Source: an uncultured archaeon (GTDB lineage: Archaea; Asgardarchaeota; Lokiarchaeia; Sigyniarchaeales; SOKP01). Taken from it: a stretch of 64,000 nucleotides of DNA. Position 1 is the first letter of the stretch; each line of letters opens with the position of its first letter. A program made the translations under genes and the position numbers. The stretch lies in assembly GCA_964486045.1 (NCBI GenBank), contig CAZALK010000001.1, forward strand, positions 488,242-552,241, in the 5' to 3' direction. Shown one piece after another: positions 19,421 through 39,411 of this stretch. Below the pieces are notes generated by a model. That model saw nothing but the letters and a program-made list of their open reading frames with translations, searched no databases and was not told the DNA's origin.

Positions 19421-19890
19421 TTGAAGAATTTTTCTTTATAAATGCTTATTTATCTTTATTTCAATTAGTTAAAATTTACAAAATTCACACGATAAAATGA
19501 GCTTCAAATCGAAAGGTCCGAAATCACATCCCAGCCACAGCCCTAAAGCTAAACCCGAACCGCCTAAACCCACCCCTGAAAAAGATTCAAAACCATCTAA
19601 CCAAAAACCGAACCAAAAGCCAAAACATAAACCTAATCAAAATTCTAAACCTCAACCAGGAAAAATTCGACAGGATAAAAATCAAAAACCAAAAACTAAC
19701 CCAAGTGAAAAATCTAAAAATAATATTAGCCCACCCCTCCTAGACCTGAATAACAATGCTAAAAAGATCATTACTAACCTCGCCTCTCAGCCAATTAAAG
19801 AACATACCACACCTCCTACAAAATCTCCCCTAGAACCGAATAAAGAATCTAAAAACAGAATAATCCGACCCGTTTTCAAACCGAATATGA
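19421..19890 (+). repeat. Diverged repeat copy B (promoter + 5' coding leader), shared with 6790-7250
   Basis: TTTATAAA at 19435-19442 is the same distance from the ATG as in copy A; shared coding leader. Confidence 0.85.
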
Positions 19891-22379
19891 TTCAAAATGG
19901 TAATAATAGAATTAAACGCCCTAACTTCAAACCGGATCAACATAAAGGATCTAAAAATATCATCTCCCGACTAATATTCGATCCAAATAAACCTTCCTCT
20001 AATAAAAATAAAATTTCTCGGCCAAATTTCATACCTAATGATGAAGCTAAGAATAAAATCATAAAATATACAATTGAATCAACAGGAAAACCTAAAAACA
20101 GAATTAATAGATACCAAATTGACTCGGGTAAAAACCAACAATATAATAATAAAATAAGGAGGATTCCATTCAAGCCAAATGATGAAATTAAAAACAATAC
20201 CGAAAGTACACCCGCCAGACCTAAGCATATCAAAAATAATAGTCAACCAGCAATAATAAAACCAACTACTACACCCCCCCAAATAACCAAAAACAAGATT
20301 ATTAAGACTGAACCCCTCACTCACCCGCAAAAAGAAACCAGGAAAAATATAGTTAAATCCAGATGGGCATTCCTTAACTACGATGCTCAAGGAAACCTAC
20401 TCTCGCGTGAAGTCAAAATGCAAAATGCTGTCAACCACTTCAACCGAGAAATCCTTCCCGAATTAATGAAAGATCCCGCCATCGCTAAAAAAATTAAAAA
20501 ATTACACACAGTCGGTTCAAACGACCTAGTTCGTAAAAATTATAGCGGATTCCTCAACGCCTTGAGCAGAGAACATAAAATTAAATGGAGTGAACTCAAA
20601 TCTACTATAAGTCCTATTAAAATTACCACACATTTAACCATGCTGAAAGGGAAAACCTCGCTCAAGCCTAAACATAAGACTAAATCCAAACCAGATCTTA
20701 ATTATGACTACTTTTCCATGAATTATGATGATAACCTAAATCCGCTTAACCGTGAACAAAAACTTCAAAAGGCAATCACAGTCTACAATCAAAAAATTTT
20801 ACCTGATCTCCAAAATGTTCCAGAAATTAAAGAAAAACTCGAAAATGGAAAGAGTGTAAGCTACCGAGACCTTGAAAATCAAGGGTATGGGAATTTTTAC
20901 GAGGCTTTAAATAGAAATGGCGTGAAGATCAGATGGAACGAATTCAAACAAGAAGCTGGCTATAAAGTTAACATTGATCACGAAAAATACAAGTTTCTTA
21001 ACTACGATCAGAATGGCAATAGAATTAACCCTGAGGAAAAATTAGTCATTGCCCTTGACCACTACAATAATATTATCGTACCAGACTTGATGAAAATCCC
21101 TGAAATCAAACAAAAGATTGAATCTGGATATCCTCCTGCCCTTGATGATTTGATTAAATACGGACATCCGGGATTCATCGCACCCCTCTCTCAAAAAGAA
21201 CCAAAAATCCATTATAACACCTTAATTGAAGCAGCAGGCCTTAAACCAAATGTGGATCACAATAAATATCGATTCTTAAATTACAATGAACAAGATACTC
21301 CTCATTCTTATCAAGACAAAATGGAAATTGCCAAGGAATTCTTCAGTAATATCATTGTCCCAAAGCTGATCGAGAAAGATTTAATTAGACCAGGGGAAAC
21401 TCCAGGTCTCAGGGAAATGGTCAAGGGTGGATTCAGTGGATTTTTTCCTTCTCTCGCCTTTAAAGAACAGAAAATTGATTACAATGATCTAATTCAAGCA
21501 GTAGGTCTCGACCCAAATATTACTCATGGTCGTTGGGATTTCATCAAATATGACCATAACGGAAATATTCTCTCGAAGGAAGAAAAACTCGCCAACGCTG
21601 CTGATTATTTTAACACAATTGTTTACCCCGATTTAATTAACAAGGATGCTGTTAAGCAAGGAGAAGCCCCGACTTCCCTTGATCTACAGGATTATAAGCA
21701 TGAGGATTTTCTCAGTGCCTTGCGTGGTAAAGAACCTAAAGTTTCATTTAACCGTTTAATTGAGCATGCGGGATTCACCCCACATGATTTTAATACTTTA
21801 TCTACAATAGGCACTAATTTTCATTGGACCGCAGAAAAAATTTTTTTGGAACATACCAGAAATCAAAATTGCACTTCTTTCTATGAAGTTAGAGGAAATG
21901 GTGACAATTCAATTGTAGTTGATAAAAATTTTAAAAATTTATCCAATGGTGCGGATCTTCTTGCTCAATTACGTCCAAATATTAAGATTATTAATTTTGA
22001 TTATTTTCTCAGTAACTCAGAAAAAAGTAAAACTGATCATAGCCAAAGAAACTACCAAGGTGAAGAAGTAGCGCTTTGTCTTATCCCTCTAAATGCTAAT
22101 GAACCGCAAGACATAGATCAAGACATTCCTCATAGTAATAATGTTTTAGTTTTAAATCCTAAAGGTTTCGCCGCTTTCCTGGGATATAAAGATGGAATTT
22201 ACGATAAATTTATGGAAAGTGTCCAATTAGCGAGAATAGCCATGTACGATGAGGAGGCAAAAGAGATATTATATGAAATGAGAGTAGAAGCTTATGATGC
22301 CCTAAAAAGCAATGAAAACGATTTAAATTACTCGACAAAAGAATTTAAAAAGTTCCGCGATACACAAAAAGAAACTTAA
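19497..22379 (+). CDS. Low-complexity leader + five ~90-aa helical repeats + C-terminal PD-(D/E)XK-like domain
   Basis: P/K/N/Q-rich N-terminus with KNRI.RP.F.P repeats; five (W/Y)xF(L/I)NYD..G...EK...A...F...I.P.L units; GTNFH..AE...FYE..GD...INFDY C-terminus. Confidence 0.75.
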   Translation: MSFKSKGPKSHPSHSPKAKPEPPKPTPEKDSKPSNQKPNQKPKHKPNQNSKPQPGKIRQDKNQKPKTNPSEKSKNNISPPLLDLNNNAKKIITNLASQPIKEHTTPPTKSPLEPNKESKNRIIRPVFKPNMIQNGNNRIKRPNFKPDQHKGSKNIISRLIFDPNKPSSNKNKISRPNFIPNDEAKNKIIKYTIESTGKPKNRINRYQIDSGKNQQYNNKIRRIPFKPNDEIKNNTESTPARPKHIKNNSQPAIIKPTTTPPQITKNKIIKTEPLTHPQKETRKNIVKSRWAFLNYDAQGNLLSREVKMQNAVNHFNREILPELMKDPAIAKKIKKLHTVGSNDLVRKNYSGFLNALSREHKIKWSELKSTISPIKITTHLTMLKGKTSLKPKHKTKSKPDLNYDYFSMNYDDNLNPLNREQKLQKAITVYNQKILPDLQNVPEIKEKLENGKSVSYRDLENQGYGNFYEALNRNGVKIRWNEFKQEAGYKVNIDHEKYKFLNYDQNGNRINPEEKLVIALDHYNNIIVPDLMKIPEIKQKIESGYPPALDDLIKYGHPGFIAPLSQKEPKIHYNTLIEAAGLKPNVDHNKYRFLNYNEQDTPHSYQDKMEIAKEFFSNIIVPKLIEKDLIRPGETPGLREMVKGGFSGFFPSLAFKEQKIDYNDLIQAVGLDPNITHGRWDFIKYDHNGNILSKEEKLANAADYFNTIVYPDLINKDAVKQGEAPTSLDLQDYKHEDFLSALRGKEPKVSFNRLIEHAGFTPHDFNTLSTIGTNFHWTAEKIFLEHTRNQNCTSFYEVRGNGDNSIVVDKNFKNLSNGADLLAQLRPNIKIINFDYFLSNSEKSKTDHSQRNYQGEEVALCLIPLNANEPQDIDQDIPHSNNVLVLNPKGFAAFLGYKDGIYDKFMESVQLARIAMYDEEAKEILYEMRVEAYDALKSNENDLNYSTKEFKKFRDTQKET

Positions 22380-22561
22380 GATGAGAATAGAATTAATTAT
22401 AAATATGAATTGTTTTACTATTTATTACAAGAACTTATATTTATAACAATTAAAAGAGTTAATTTTAGTAAAAATATAATTTATATCGAACTTAATAATA
22501 TGGTTGTTTATGATGTTTGATCGTAAAGGAAATTATTGGAATTACCAATTAAAGCTAGGAG

Positions 22562-23356
22562 GTGCGAGAAATTCTCCATAATTTTTACTTGATACACCAG
22601 CATATCTCCCCGGAGATTCTCCGTTGAGTGTTAACGGGTATCTGTTTAATACATAGAAATTATGGCACCATCGAATTCAATCAGGATTTAGTGAGTGGCT
22701 TTCTAACCGCCCTTAAGGACTTTAGTGTTGAGTTTTCCAAGGGTAGCGGAGAACTCAAGGTTATAGGTTGTAGATAGATTTTATCTATTAATAAAGACAT
22801 GCAGATATTTTATCTGCTTTTAGTCTTTAAGGAGGGTGTCTTATGTACAGCTGCTGCTGATAAAAATGATGATGCCAAGATTACCCATAAAGCACTAACT
22901 GATATTATTGACAAATTCGTAGGAAAGTTCGGTGATCAGCTTGAGAATTGGTCTGGTGATGTACGTATTTTTCGAGACTTTGAGAGCATAATCGACGATG
23001 TCCTGAAAGTAGGTAAGGTTGCGGAGATCCAGCTAAAGATCCCGATACTCAAAATTTTCAAGAAGGATTTCATCAAGTCGCAGAAGCGCATTGCGAAGAA
23101 GGGGCTGGTGCTTTCGGAGGCGGATTTGCGAGAGGTGAAGGATGTGAAACCGGAGTGGGCTGCCAAGCGCTTACCGAAACAGGTTATAGCGACCGGAATT
23201 TTAGATGCGGTGGAGTTTGATATCGCGCATTTAGCGGACGGATTTCACACGCTTTCGGATATCGCGGAAGAGTCGGGTCACCCAGTGCCAGAGATTCAGA
23301 AGATTATGGACAATTTAGACAAGTTAGAGCTTCTTTCGTTTGTAGAGATAAAGTAA
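22562..23356 (+). CDS. Longin-like domain + C-terminal winged-helix protein, interrupted by two candidate 30-nt BHB introns (22605-22634 and 22767-22796)
   Basis: Spliced frame MREILHNFYLIHQHTGICLIHRNYGTIEFNQDLVSGFLTALKDFSVEFSKGSGELKVIDMQIFYLL... joins ORF 22799-23356. DLVSGFLTAL..F is typical of Asgard longins. The start (GTG 22562, overlapping GGAGG) is uncertain. Confidence 0.75.
22605..22634 (+). other. Candidate mRNA intron 1 (strict BHB)
   Basis: Central helix AGCA(22599-602)/UGUU(22629-32); bulges UA|U and AA|C; inner stems CUC/GAG and CGGAG/CUCCG; outer CC/GG and GAUAC/GUAUC; in-frame TGA at 22625-27. Confidence 0.75.
22767..22796 (+). other. Candidate mRNA intron 2 (relaxed BHB)
   Basis: Central helix UUAU(22761-64)/AUAA(22791-94); bulges AG|G and AG|A; inner stem GUAGAUA/UAUCUAU; in-frame TAG at 22775-77; ligation gives GTT ATA GAC ATG (VIDM). 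Confidence 0.7.
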
Positions 23357-23406
23357 TTTTATTCTTTCTTTTTATATTAGACCATTTCTATAATGAAGAG
23401 TTTAGC

Positions 23407-23560
23407 CTATTCTTGAAAAATAATATCTTCAATTCGCTTCAAAAGCTGTTTTCCAAGCTTGGTGGGATAGACTTGTTTGAGCCATGTTGAGGTACGCCTC
23501 AATAGATTATCTCTTTCCTAGTGATTTAAGCGCTTTATTCATTAGCAGGCATACCACTCC
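23407..23560 (-). pseudogene. Degraded winged-helix (MarR-like) remnant
   Basis: MNKALKSL followed, after a 1-nt frameshift, by ERDNLLRRTSTWLKQVYPTKLGKQLLKRIEDIIFQE-stop. Confidence 0.35.
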
Positions 23561-23812
23561 TTTTAATTTTTTTAAATAATCCTGAGATATCTCCAATTTC
23601 TTTTTTTTTATTTTTTTAAATCTTTATATTTTATCTCTTTTCAAATCACAGCATATATACCAACCTAAATAATTATGAAGCATTAAGAGTAAAAGTAAAA
23701 AAAAATATCATAAAACAAGATGAAAAGTAAGATTAAAGTATATAATAAATTTTATGACGTTATAGAATTAAATGAATAAATTTTTGAAAACTAACTGATT
23801 TATAACGATAAG

Positions 23813-25285
23813 ATGAATGTTAATAAAGTTGAGGAGAATATTTATGAGATTCCTCCAAAAACATTGATGACCCGGATTCAAGGCAATATAGAGAAATTCC
23901 AAATGAACGTTCCTGTTAGAATTTATGCTAATAGCTATATATTAGAAAAAATCAAGGGAGATCGTACATTAGATCAAATAAGTAATGTTGCATGCTTACC
24001 AGGGGTACAAAAACACGTTATTGCATTATCCGATGCACATCAAGGATATGGTTTCTGTATTGGTGGAGTTGCTGGAACTGAAGCTGAGACAGGAATGATT
24101 TCTCCAGGAGGAGTTGGTTATGATATAAACTGCGGTGTGAGATTATTAAGGACAAATTTATTTCTCACCGATATTAAAAGTCTTTTACCTGAATTATTAG
24201 AGAATATTTATAGAAGTATCCCTTCTGGATTAGGGTCAAAAGGTAAATTAAATATTAGTTATTCTGACTTAGATAATGTTTTAAATAATGGAGTGAAATG
24301 GGCATTAGATAAGGGGTATGCTATTGATAAGGATGTTGACCATCTAGAGGAAAACGGGTGTCTAAAAAATGCGGATGCCACCTTAGTTTCACAGAAGGCA
24401 AAACAAAGAGGCATTAAGCAACTTGGTTCTTTAGGAAGCGGGAATCATTTTCTTGAAATACAAAGAGTAGATCAAATTTACAATAAAGCTATTGCGAAAA
24501 AATTAGGAATTTTCGAGAAAAACCAGATTAATATAATGGTTCATACGGGAAGTAGAGCATTAGGTCATCAAGTTTGTACAGATAGCCTGCGTACTATTGA
24601 AAAGGCGATGAAAACATATAAAATTAAAGTACCTGATAGGGAACTAGCCTGTGTACCAGCAGATACACCTGAAGCAGAAAATTACCTACAACAGATGGCA
24701 TGTGCTGCTAATTTTGGTTTTACAAATCGTCAGTTGATAACTCATTGGTTGAGAGAATCTTTTCAAAATGCATTTAATAAAGACATCGATGCATTAGATA
24801 TGCATATGATTTATGGTGTATGCCATAACATTCTAAAAATAGAAGAACATGATGTGAATGGAAAAAGAATGAATTTAAACATCCATCGTAAAGGTGCAAC
24901 AAGAGCTTTCCCTCCAGGACACCCTGATATACCTCAAGATTATAAAGACATTGGTCAACCTGTCTTGATTCCTGGAACCATGGGATCGGGTTCATACTTA
25001 TGTGTTGGTAAACCAAGGGCAATGGAGCTTTCTTTCGGATCAACCGCTCATGGCTCAGGTCGTTTAATGTCTCGATCGAAAGCCGTTAAACAATATTGGG
25101 GTGCTAAAGTAAAAGAGGATCTGGGAAAGAAAGGAATTTTAGTAAAAAGCGCTTCATTGAAGGTCCTCGCAGAAGAAAGCCCAGGTGCTTATAAAGATAT
25201 TGATCAAGTTGTTCAAGTTAGTCATAATCTTGGAATAGTTGAAAAAATCGTAAGATTTGTACCGGTAGGGGTTGTTAAAGGATAA
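23813..25285 (+). CDS. rtcB: tRNA-splicing RNA ligase RtcB
   Basis: DAHQGYGF, GVGYDINCG, LGSGNHFLE, HTGSR, HRKGAT, HGSGR, EESPGAYK. Confidence 0.97.
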   Translation: MNVNKVEENIYEIPPKTLMTRIQGNIEKFQMNVPVRIYANSYILEKIKGDRTLDQISNVACLPGVQKHVIALSDAHQGYGFCIGGVAGTEAETGMISPGGVGYDINCGVRLLRTNLFLTDIKSLLPELLENIYRSIPSGLGSKGKLNISYSDLDNVLNNGVKWALDKGYAIDKDVDHLEENGCLKNADATLVSQKAKQRGIKQLGSLGSGNHFLEIQRVDQIYNKAIAKKLGIFEKNQINIMVHTGSRALGHQVCTDSLRTIEKAMKTYKIKVPDRELACVPADTPEAENYLQQMACAANFGFTNRQLITHWLRESFQNAFNKDIDALDMHMIYGVCHNILKIEEHDVNGKRMNLNIHRKGATRAFPPGHPDIPQDYKDIGQPVLIPGTMGSGSYLCVGKPRAMELSFGSTAHGSGRLMSRSKAVKQYWGAKVKEDLGKKGILVKSASLKVLAEESPGAYKDIDQVVQVSHNLGIVEKIVRFVPVGVVKG

Positions 25286-25300
25286 TAATCAAAAAAAATA

Positions 25301-25738
25301 TTAAATATCAAAGACAATTCTAATCTCGACCTTGTCCTTTTTTTCTTCAATATTCATGAAAGAATAAGTAATTGCTTTAACTTCTGTCCCAATTTCATGT
25401 TTATTTCTATCAAATTGTTCTCCTTTCGCTATTGCAAATAATTTAAAATTTTCTTCAATCTTCAGTATTGATTTAACAGATACATAACTAAAAACTAAAT
25501 CTTCTACATCAAATATAAAGAGAAATTCAGATAGGAAGTCAAAGCATAGTGCATATTTATCTTCGGAGATAATTTCAATCTTTTTCTCGATTTTAGGCAT
25601 AACTTTTTTCAAGTTAGGAGTAATAGTAGTCATTAAGCTTAAAGCTGTTTGAGAAAACGCGTCTTCTAGGTTTTTTCCCCAACTTTTGACACTTACATCA
25701 GCAGTGTGGTCCATAAACTCAAATCCGGAGCCATTCAT
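25301..25738 (-). CDS. Archease (RtcB cofactor)
   Basis: DHTADV, EVKAITY, terminal VFDI. Confidence 0.95.
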   Translation of the reverse strand: MNGSGFEFMDHTADVSVKSWGKNLEDAFSQTALSLMTTITPNLKKVMPKIEKKIEIISEDKYALCFDFLSEFLFIFDVEDLVFSYVSVKSILKIEENFKLFAIAKGEQFDRNKHEIGTEVKAITYSFMNIEEKKDKVEIRIVFDI

Positions 25739-37749: not shown

Positions 37750-37850
37750 AGCCTCTGGGGGGAATTGAACCCCCGGCCTACAGATTACGAATCTTTAACA
37801 TTTACGTCAAAATGATATTAAATGTTGCTCTACCGCTAAGCCACAGAGGC
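37750..37850 (-). tRNA. tRNA-Thr (CGT) with 29-nt intron at 28/29 (37795-37823)
   Basis: GCCTCTG/CAGAGGC acceptor stem; BHB helix AGCA/UGUU; mature arm ACAGA-TTCGTAA-TCTGT. Confidence 0.9.
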
Positions 37851-39307: not shown

Positions 39308-39411
39308 GGGCTATTGGCGCAGGCAGGTAGCGCAACAGGCTTTTAACCTGAAATTTATGAGATTAACTCTCCTGAAAAGGAAGGTCGGGGGTTCGATTCC
39401 CCTATAGCCCG
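39308..39411 (+). tRNA. tRNA-Lys (TTT) with 30-nt intron at 44/45 (39353-39382)
   Basis: GGGCTAT/ATAGCCC acceptor stem, CTTTTAA anticodon loop; relaxed BHB CCUG/AAGG with inner UUUA/UGAA and GAG/CUC. Confidence 0.85.

What the first reader, a model, noticed from the sequence alone, without database searches (positions are those of the whole stretch)
22562..23356. Two BHB (tRNA-type) introns inside a protein-coding, eukaryote-like longin gene
Seen: the reading frame is broken by two 30-nt inserts, each with an in-frame stop (TGA 22625, TAG 22775). Each folds into a 4-bp helix flanked by 3-nt bulges (AGCA/UGUU, the same central helix as the tRNA-Thr intron in this window, and UUAU/AUAA). Cutting after the second nucleotide of each bulge, as EndA does, removes exactly 22605-22634 and 22767-22796 and gives a seamless 244-aa protein (..LIHQHTGICLIHRNY.. 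and ..ELKVIDMQIFY..). Established: EndA/RtcB splice BHB introns in archaeal tRNA and rRNA, and mRNA examples are rare (crenarchaeal cbf5). Inference: multi-intron mRNA splicing in an Asgard archaeon, in a trafficking-type signature gene that gene callers would truncate. Similar introns may be hidden in other apparent pseudogenes.
Basis: partly seen in the sequence, partly recalled or inferred. Interest (0 to 1): 0.95.

Follow-up and report, generated by a model that had tools for sequence, protein, structure and literature searches.

The report
Two tRNA-type mini-introns in an Asgard gene
A conserved Asgard-archaeal protein gene next to the RNA ligase gene rtcB is broken by two 30-base inserts shaped like tRNA introns, so the protein can almost certainly be made only after the message is cut and re-joined, which the literature I searched documents in archaea only for cbf5.

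Summary
The frame 22562-23356 (+) is interrupted by exactly 22605-22634 and 22767-22796, each 30 nt with an in-frame stop.

- **Homologues:** intronless homologues of about 241 aa, up to 97% identical, gap exactly at both inserts.
- **Structure:** insert 1 folds by free energy alone into a canonical helix-bulge-helix-bulge-helix. Insert 2 is a relaxed, AU-rich version.
- **Conservation:** among 80 species-level Promethearchaeota genomes, 13 more carry a homologous 30-nt insert at site 2 and three at site 1, all with in-frame stops.
- **Covariation:** compensatory changes keep the helices, and the exon bases of the central helix are fixed only in insert-bearing genes (14/14 vs 5/67).
- **Selection:** exons are under strong purifying selection, so this is not a pseudogene.
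- **Enzymes:** the genome encodes two EndA-type subunits, one RtcB (directly downstream) and archease.
- **Other genes:** the same genome has similar inserts elsewhere, including its only RNA polymerase A' gene.

Best reading (0.85): EndA/RtcB-spliced mRNA introns. No RNA evidence could be obtained. The N-terminal domain has a longin fold and the C-terminus is a winged helix; a trafficking role is not shown. Earlier notes of this scan report similar introns in this and other archaeal genomes.

The parts
22562..22604 (+). Exon 1 (14 codons plus 1 base). The start codon is uncertain: GTG 22562 directly abuts a GGAGG, and close homologues start with ATG/TTG at the position of ATT 22571.
22605..22634 (+). 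Intron 1, 30 nt, with in-frame TGA 22625-22627. Internal hairpin h': 22606-22608/22626-22628 and 22611-22615/22619-22623.
   Evidence: The gap in A1 matches exactly. The MFE structure is the hBHBh' motif at -16.4 kcal/mol. The same site is occupied in L001-L003, with 5 compensated pairs.
22591..22642 (+). BHB motif 1. Outer helix h: 22591-22595/22638-22642 and 22597-22598/22636-22637. Central helix H: 22599-22602/22629-22632. Bulges: 22603-22605 and 22633-22635. Predicted cuts: after 22604 and after 22634.
22635..22766 (+). Exon 2 (44 codons)
22767..22796 (+). Intron 2, 30 nt, with in-frame TAG 22775-22777. Hairpin h': 22768-22776/22782-22790 (9 positions, one U.U mismatch), loop 22777-22781.
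   Evidence: The gap in A1 matches exactly. A homologous 30-nt insert sits at the same site in 13 other species and in one further metagenome contig. 92% of cells are paired and 6 pairs have changes on both sides.
22758..22800 (+). BHB motif 2 (relaxed). H: 22761-22764/22791-22794. Bulges: 22765-22767 and 22795-22797. Weak outer helix: 22760/22798 and 22758/22800 only. Predicted cuts: after 22766 and after 22796.
22797..23356 (+). Exon 3 (186 codons plus stop). It covers the rest of the longin-fold domain and the C-terminal winged helix-turn-helix. Gene callers report only this part, from ATG 22799.
23813..25285 (+). rtcB, the only RNA 3'-phosphate ligase gene of the genome and the presumed exon ligase. 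It lies directly downstream in 69 of 80 related loci.
25301..25738 (-). Archease (RtcB activator), convergent with rtcB.
   Evidence: ORF. Pfam Archease is on record at the same position in the close relative L095.

Best explanation
The gene encodes a 244-aa (or 241-aa) protein with a longin-fold domain and a winged helix. Its pre-mRNA carries two 30-nt bulge-helix-bulge introns. At each site exon and intron bases pair into a 4-bp helix flanked by two 3-nt bulges, supported by an intron hairpin and an exon-exon helix. The heteromeric tRNA-splicing endonuclease (two EndA-type genes in this genome) would cut between the second and third base of each bulge, after 22604 and 22634, and after 22766 and 22796. 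RtcB, with archease, would join the exons and probably circularise the introns. Unspliced message ends at the stop codon inside the first intron.

Shown: the inserts, their exact borders, the motif, its conservation and covariation, selection on the exons, and the presence of the enzymes. Inferred: that cutting and joining happen in the cell, and which enzymes do it.
For: 1. Borders: 12 aligned homologues gap exactly at both inserts and are 76-97% identical elsewhere. A DNA alignment with close intronless relatives shows clean 30-nt presence/absence.
2. Structure: for intron 1 the unconstrained minimum-energy fold is the full hBHBh' motif.
3. Cut rule: cutting after the second bulge base reproduces the junction required by the protein. 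This is the rule reported for the cbf5 introns (PMC2738675).
4. Conservation: 13 of 80 other species genomes carry a homologous 30-nt insert at site 2 and three at site 1, all with in-frame stops.
5. Covariation, intron 2: 92% of cells paired against 30-52% for slid partners, and 6 pairs changed on both sides; 0 of 500 shuffles reach the observed pairing, both-sided-change or covariation measures (34 of 500 reach the count of further pair types).
6. Covariation, intron 1: 89% paired, 5 compensated pairs.
7. Exon constraint: the exon strand of the central helix (TTATAG) is present in 14/14 intron-bearing genes against 5/67 intronless ones, Fisher p = 6e-12.
8. Selection: between intron-bearing genes pN is 0.07-0.18 while synonymous sites are saturated (pS 0.68-0.92). 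The intron alignment still has 86% mean column identity.
9. Single copy: the genome has only this orthologue; paralogues are 24-33% identical.
10. Enzymes: there are two EndA-domain ORFs of about 200 aa. One has the Tyr/His/Lys residues I recognise, from my own knowledge, as the EndA catalytic triad; the other lacks the His. This fits the (alpha-beta)2 type reported for Asgard archaea, which tolerates relaxed motifs (PMC5829648). There is one rtcB and an archease.
11. Same genome, other genes: 27-30-nt stop-containing inserts with the same geometry lie inside single Pfam matches of RNA polymerase A', BcrAD_BadFG, Thiolase_N and AIRS. The RNA polymerase A' gene is the only copy in a 99%-complete genome and contains a TAA.
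Against: - No transcript evidence: no RNA run was listed, and no spliced-junction sequence was found.
- Intron 2's full BHB structure is not favoured by nearest-neighbour energies (+0.2 kcal/mol against an MFE of -6.2). Its folds are no more stable than shuffles (z -0.6 and +0.4). Its outer helix is only two non-adjacent pairs.
- Intron 1 in L001-L003 has an A.G mismatch in the 4-bp helix.
- The scattered distribution on the gene tree (12 changes for intron 2) requires many precise losses or gains.
- My genome-wide motif statistics gave only a modest signal, a peak at length 30. A cut-offset control showed no enrichment.
Confidence: 0.85

Rival explanations
1. The gene is a pseudogene: two small insertions with stop codons inactivated it, and the hairpin shape reflects whatever was inserted.
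For: Each insert has an in-frame stop. Many close relatives lack the inserts.
Against: The same inserts persist in 13 other species whose synonymous sites are saturated, while the exons stay under strong purifying selection with no other stop or frameshift. The inserts themselves covary to keep a structure. Exon synonymous sites that pair with the intron are fixed. The genome has no second copy. An essential single-copy gene, RNA polymerase A', carries the same kind of insert.
Confidence: 0.02
2. The inserts stay in the mRNA and are skipped or read through during translation, as in the 50-nt ribosome hop of phage T4 gene 60.
For: A short in-frame insert with a hairpin and an early stop resembles a bypass element. 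Nothing here measures RNA or protein.
Against: Bypassing as I recall it for T4 gene 60 needs matching take-off and landing codons. CAU before intron 1 and AUA before intron 2 have no matching codon at the 3' ends of the inserts. The conserved features are those of the endonuclease substrate: a 4-bp helix, two 3-nt bulges and an exon-exon helix with covariation, including exon synonymous sites. All three stop codons occur in such inserts in this genome, which excludes a reassigned codon. Ten extra residues inside the conserved GHFGH|IELA stretch of RNA polymerase A' would be hard to tolerate.
Confidence: 0.04
3. The motifs are endonuclease cleavage sites used mainly to destroy or throttle the message. 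Exon joining would be rare or conditional, making this a regulatory switch rather than constitutive splicing.
For: The gene sits beside rtcB and archease in 69/80 loci and ends in a DNA-binding-type winged helix. Intron 2's motif is weak, which could make splicing inefficient.
Against: Exons downstream of both introns are as conserved in intron-bearing species as in intronless ones, so full-length protein must be made. Most species manage without the introns. Similar introns sit in housekeeping genes.
Confidence: 0.07

Closest known systems
BHB intron in cbf5 pre-mRNA of Crenarchaeota (Watanabe 2002; Yoshinari 2006; Yokobori 2009, PMC2738675)
   Same: Both are short, ORF-less introns in a protein-coding gene with a BHB or relaxed BHB motif. 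In both, the predicted cuts lie between the second and third bulge bases. The host has a hetero-oligomeric splicing endonuclease. Distribution among relatives is patchy, implying gain and loss.
   Different: Here there are two introns in one gene, in a different phylum (Promethearchaeota/Asgard) and an unrelated gene. Both are exactly 30 nt and in frame, each with a stop. Intron 2 is kept across at least 14 species with saturated synonymous sites. It belongs to a set that also hits RNA polymerase A' and metabolic genes in the same genome. For cbf5, cDNA evidence exists; here it does not.
Archaeal tRNA and rRNA BHB introns, including the heavily interrupted tRNA genes of Asgard archaea (bioRxiv 10.64898/2026.10.13.758758)
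   Same: The motif, the presumed enzymes (EndA, RtcB, archease) and the size range are the same. The window's own tRNA-Thr has a 29-nt intron with the same AGCA/UGUU helix.
   Different: The host RNA is a translated message, so splicing must restore a reading frame and compete with ribosomes. In that preprint 'mRNA' does not occur and 'protein-coding' occurs once, only for neighbouring genes.
IRE1/RtcB unconventional splicing of XBP1/HAC1 mRNA in eukaryotes
   Same: From my own knowledge of the pathway, not tested here: spliceosome-independent removal of a very short intron from an mRNA by a protein endonuclease that recognises RNA structure, followed by RtcB-type ligation in animals.
   Different: The endonuclease (IRE1) and substrate (two stem-loops) are different. 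That splicing is stress-regulated and shifts the frame. No homology of the introns is implied.

Membership tests
Archaeal BHB (EndA-type) intron | Two 3-nt bulges on opposite strands separated by a 4-bp helix | tested here: met
   Intron 1: present in the unconstrained MFE fold. Intron 2: present by direct pairing; the 4-bp helix is paired in 100% of cells across 14 sequences.
Archaeal BHB (EndA-type) intron | Flanking helices h (exon-exon) and h' (intron-intron), as in the canonical hBHBh' form | tested here: inconclusive
   Intron 1 meets it: h has 7 bp with one bulged A, and h' has 3+5 bp. Intron 2 has a 9-position h' hairpin with one mismatch but only two non-adjacent h pairs. That is the relaxed form said to need the (alpha-beta)2 or epsilon2 enzyme.
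Archaeal BHB (EndA-type) intron | Cutting between bulge bases 2 and 3 gives the functional junction | tested here: met
   The predicted junctions equal the junctions in intronless orthologues for both introns and for the copies in 13 other species. The rule is as in PMC2738675.
Archaeal BHB (EndA-type) intron | The structure is maintained in evolution (covariation) | tested here: met
   exon-side constraint
Archaeal BHB (EndA-type) intron | The host encodes the splicing endonuclease and an RtcB-type ligase | tested here: met
   Two PF01974 genes above the cut-off; one RtcB at E 4.7e-167; archease.
Archaeal BHB (EndA-type) intron | The intron is absent from the mature RNA (spliced junction, circular intron) | not testable with these tools
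   No RNA run was listed. No spliced-junction match was found in metagenome contigs.
Longin domain proteins | Sequence match to Pfam Longin (PF13774) above the gathering score | tested here: not met
   E 0.0088, 16.4 bits against a cut-off of 26.2. Two distant relatives score similarly below threshold.
Longin domain proteins | The beta-beta-alpha-beta-beta-beta-alpha-alpha fold | tested here: met
   The AF2 model of residues 1-135 has pLDDT 90 and this order of elements. The best Foldseek matches are AP-complex sigma and mu N-terminal domains, TRAPP subunits, Mon1-Ccz1 and Sec22b, with TM 0.55-0.72. Roadblock/LAMTOR proteins rank slightly lower.

The most novel reading that the evidence does not exclude
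The gene may encode a regulator or partner of the neighbouring rtcB-archease pair. It has a winged helix and keeps this synteny in 69/80 species. In the intron-bearing lineages its message can only be completed by the EndA/RtcB pathway itself. Production of the protein would then report the cell's RNA-ligation capacity, forming a feedback loop. This would be one visible part of a lineage-wide population of ancient, gained-and-lost micro-introns in Asgard mRNAs.
Probability: 0.12. Interest if true: 0.85.

Novelty: new member of a known kind. Interest (0 to 1): 0.78.

Why it matters
In the literature I could search, protein-dependent (BHB) splicing of archaeal mRNAs rests essentially on one gene, cbf5 of Crenarchaeota. 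Here a different gene, in the closest prokaryotic relatives of eukaryotes, carries two such introns. One of them has been kept across many species.

The same genome has similar introns in its only RNA polymerase A' gene and in several enzymes. That points to split protein genes as a regular feature of these genomes, with three consequences:
- **Annotation:** gene callers truncate these genes or drop them as pseudogenes.
- **Gene expression:** in a cell without a nucleus, splicing has to outrun or exclude ribosomes.
- **Intron evolution:** a tractable, non-spliceosomal system of intron gain and loss exists in Asgard archaea.

The claim is directly testable with RT-PCR or small-RNA sequencing on existing enrichment cultures.

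Tried and rejected
- **Spliced junctions:** exact 30-nt junction searches in metagenome contigs found nothing for either junction.
- **Spliced products in the databases:** no fetched protein is identical to the spliced product of any intron-bearing locus.
- **Motif-only genome scan:** the scan (4-bp helix, h at least 2, h' at least 3 up to 8) shows no peak at any length against local shuffles.
- **ORF joining:** adding an ORF-joining test left a large background from ordinary gene junctions.
- **Cut-offset control:** a 5x5 matrix of cut offsets, with and without a codon-usage filter, showed no excess for the true geometry. I therefore give no genome-wide count. The only statistical signal is a peak at length 30 among ORF-joining hits with long hairpins: 16 against 3-6 at neighbouring lengths 28-34.
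- **tRNA detection:** ARAGORN found no tRNA in the window; Rfam found two intron-containing ones.
- **Structure and sequence searches:**
  - The full-length AF2 model from a shallow alignment was poor (pLDDT 55) and was not used.
  - A profile search of PDB sequences gave only chance-level hits.
  - The Atlas feature search returned only uncharacterised Asgard clusters.
- **RNAalifold:** on intron 2 it chose another register for the outer pairs. I kept the BHB register because it alone fits the protein junction and the slid-partner control.
- **Mobile repeat:** neither intron has another full-length copy in the genome, so a repeated mobile element is rejected.

Full report
**What is in the sequence.** On the + strand a single frame runs from GTG 22562 to TAA 23354-23356. 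It is interrupted only by TGA 22625-22627 and TAG 22775-22777. ORF listing splits it into pieces of 21, 49 and 185 aa. I translated it with the two stops read through (P0001) and searched a 5.8-billion-protein collection. That returned 431 relatives, nearly all 241-245 aa, named by their sources as hypothetical proteins of Promethearchaeota, Thor-, Hermod- or Hodarchaeota MAGs.

Against 12 of these relatives the window's protein is 76-97% identical. It has two 10-residue blocks that no homologue has, encoded by 22605-22634 and 22767-22796. Removing them gives HQH|TGICL and KVI|DMQ, as in the homologues. A DNA alignment with a 97%-identical intronless relative (L095), with L005, and with the intron-bearing L001 shows clean 30-nt presence/absence. 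Each border can slide by one base without changing the product.

**The RNA motif.** For intron 1, the unconstrained minimum-energy fold of 22590-22645 is exactly helix-bulge-helix-bulge-helix:
- outer helix GAUAC.CC / GG.GUAUC;
- central helix AGCA/UGUU;
- bulges UAU and AAC;
- an intron hairpin.

Its energy is -16.4 kcal/mol, although the z-score against shuffles is only -1.6 to -1.7.

Intron 2 is AU-rich. Its central helix is UUAU/AUAA, its bulges are AGG and AGA, and its hairpin has 9 positions with one U.U mismatch. Only two non-adjacent outer pairs form. By nearest-neighbour energies this full structure is not favoured (+0.2 against an MFE of -6.2), so it is a relaxed motif.

In both introns the bulges lie 3' of each strand of the 4-bp helix. 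Cutting between bulge bases 2 and 3 gives the required junctions. This is the rule reported for the cbf5 introns (PMC2738675). Motifs of comparable strictness occur about 2.5-3e-4 times per position and length in this genome. Two of them falling exactly on independently defined borders is therefore not chance.

**Comparative evidence.** A scan of one genome per prokaryotic species returned 80 loci with this gene. tblastn with an intronless protein showed extra DNA in 13 of them:
- All 13 have a 30-nt insert at the intron-2 site (L001, L002, L003, L011, L012, L014, L016, L023, L047, L053, L063, L066, L078).
- L001-L003 also have a 30-nt insert at the intron-1 site.
- L063 has a different 33-nt BHB-like insert 6 nt further downstream.
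- Every insert has an in-frame stop.
- A further metagenome contig (L081) begins inside an intron-2 copy.

On the 14-sequence alignment of intron 2 (A2), the BHB structure has 92% of cells paired, against 30-52% when partners are slid. Six pairs changed on both sides. None of 500 shuffles reaches the observed pairing, both-sided-change or covariation measures (34 of 500 reach the count of further pair types). One covarying pair joins a Lys third position in exon 2 to an Asp third position in exon 3. For intron 1 (4 sequences), 89% of cells are paired with five compensated pairs, although L001-L003 have an A.G in the central helix.

The exon strand of the central helix of intron 2 (TTATAG, the Val-Ile codons) is present in 14/14 intron-bearing genes. 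It occurs in only 5/67 intronless ones, which use many synonymous alternatives (Fisher p = 6e-12).

Between intron-bearing genes, synonymous sites are saturated (pS 0.68-0.92) while pN is 0.07-0.18. Yet the intron alignment keeps 86% mean column identity. The exons are therefore under purifying selection and the introns themselves are constrained. That excludes a pseudogene.

On a gene tree of 81 proteins, intron 2 is scattered and needs 12 changes. The window's nearest relatives, L004 and L005, lack both introns. This is a weakly resolved single-gene tree, so I conclude only that there were several precise losses and/or gains.

**The machinery.** The genome (5.18 Mb, 45 contigs, 99% complete, 7.8% contamination) has two EndA-domain genes above the Pfam cut-off. 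Both are ORFs of about 200 aa. One has the Tyr/His/Lys residues I recognise, from my own knowledge, as the EndA catalytic triad; the other lacks the His. This fits the (alpha-beta)2 enzyme reported for Asgard archaea and linked to relaxed motifs and to pre-mRNA splicing (PMC5829648; PMC2738675).

There is a single rtcB, directly downstream of this gene (23813-25285). A convergent archease follows (25301-25738). rtcB lies downstream in 69 of 80 related loci whether or not the introns are present.

**Not an isolated case.** Earlier first-stage notes of this scan list many candidate BHB introns in this genome, and follow-up reports describe similar introns in other archaeal genomes. I treated these as leads only.

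My own scan picked out candidates by ORF joining and a long hairpin. Read-through translations of ten were scanned against Pfam. In four of them a single domain match runs across a 27-30-nt stop-containing insert:
- RNA_pol_Rpb1_1, residues 10-330 against profile 2-312;
- BcrAD_BadFG;
- Thiolase_N;
- AIRS.

Two more have the insert between adjacent domains. The RNA polymerase A' gene is the only match in the genome and contains a TAA. An essential single-copy gene with such an insert is strong indirect evidence that these inserts are removed. TGA, TAG and TAA all occur in the inserts, so a changed genetic code is excluded.

I could not produce a reliable genome-wide count. Motif-only scans show no peak. 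ORF-joining tests are swamped by ordinary gene junctions. Only a peak at length 30 among long-hairpin hits stands out.

**The protein.** Pfam gives only sub-threshold hits: HTH_47 at the C-terminus and Longin at residues 74-127 of the read-through product. A profile search of 1.8 billion representatives found 696 relatives of the N-terminal ~130 residues. Some are fused to Ras-family GTPase or TIR domains.

With that diverse alignment, AlphaFold2 gives a confident model of residues 1-135 (pLDDT 90) with the order beta-beta-alpha-beta-beta-beta-alpha-alpha. Its best PDB matches are eukaryotic longin-type domains: AP-complex sigma and mu, TRAPP, Mon1-Ccz1 and Sec22b, with TM 0.55-0.72. Roadblock/LAMTOR proteins rank just behind. 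'Longin-fold' is therefore justified. A trafficking role is not shown, and the conserved neighbourhood points instead to rtcB and archease.

**Rivals.**
- **Pseudogene:** excluded by the evidence above.
- **Translational bypass or read-through:** this cannot be excluded without RNA or protein data, but it does not explain conservation of the exact endonuclease substrate, including exon-exon and exon-intron pairs. No matching take-off and landing codons exist.
- **Mainly regulatory cleavage:** this is possible as a refinement. Intron 2 is a weak substrate and the gene neighbours rtcB. Still, full-length protein must be made in intron-bearing species.

**Literature.** Six full-text searches turned up no description of BHB introns in Asgard protein-coding genes. 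I also read or term-searched six papers. They included a 2026 review of non-canonical splicing and a 2026 preprint on Asgard tRNA introns. The documented precedent is cbf5 in Crenarchaeota. Subscription journals are not covered, so earlier work cannot be ruled out.

**Verdict.** In mechanism it is a new member of a known kind (BHB pre-mRNA intron). It is notable for three reasons: two introns in one gene, deep conservation, and membership in a wider set that includes essential genes in an Asgard genome.

Noticed in passing
L048:3760-3788 (another Promethearchaeota/Thorarchaeota-labelled MAG): In this relative the rtcB gene itself is split by a 29-nt insert with perfect BHB geometry (TTGG/CCAA, bulges AUA and AAA, 9-bp hairpin) inside the GGVGY|DINCG motif. 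The ligase message would need ligation to be completed.
   Followed up: partly
G000 C13:44101-44130 (locus L089/L094): The only RNA polymerase A' (Rpb1 domain 1) gene of this genome has a 30-nt BHB-type insert with a TAA inside GHFGH|IELA. One Pfam match spans it.
   Followed up: partly
G000 C7:54809-54835, C3:186175-186204, C5:195271-195300, C1:759271-759300, and the insert at about residues 181-190 of the minus-strand gene C7:185714-187294 (L088): Further 27-30-nt stop-containing inserts with BHB geometry lie in a BcrAD/BadFG ATPase, a thiolase, two AIR-synthase-family genes (one selD-like) and a glycosyl transferase family 3 gene. Pfam domains continue across or on both sides of them.
   Followed up: partly
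L063:2544-2576: A different 33-nt BHB-like insert (CCGG/CCUG, bulges UAA and AAU) sits 6 nt downstream of the intron-1 site in the same gene of another species. This suggests an independent gain close by.
   Followed up: no
window 22562-25738 and 69 of 80 related loci: Conserved gene order: longin-fold/winged-helix gene, then rtcB, then convergent archease. A functional link such as regulator or partner is possible but untested.
   Followed up: partly
window 37750-37850 (-) and 39308-39411 (+): Two tRNA genes of 101 and 104 nt were found by Rfam but missed by ARAGORN. The first (anticodon CGU, Thr) has a 29-nt insert in the D-arm region bounded by AGCA/UGUU. The second (anticodon UUU, Lys) also carries extra sequence.
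   Followed up: partly
window 19497-22379 (+): The 960-aa ORF upstream has no Pfam match. It has a low-complexity Lys/Pro/Asn-rich N-terminal third, followed by about six repeats of a ~60-residue module (..F.NYD..GN....EK...A...N..I.P.L..).
   Followed up: no
window 22555-22573: The start codon is unclear. GTG 22562 is fused to a GGAGG, whereas close relatives start with ATG or TTG at the position of ATT 22571.
   Followed up: no
L069 (DATKTW010000134.1): A contig labelled Candidatus Nanopelagicaceae bacterium (Actinomycetota) carries this Asgard gene and an archaeal-type rtcB. It is probably a mis-binned contig.
   Followed up: no
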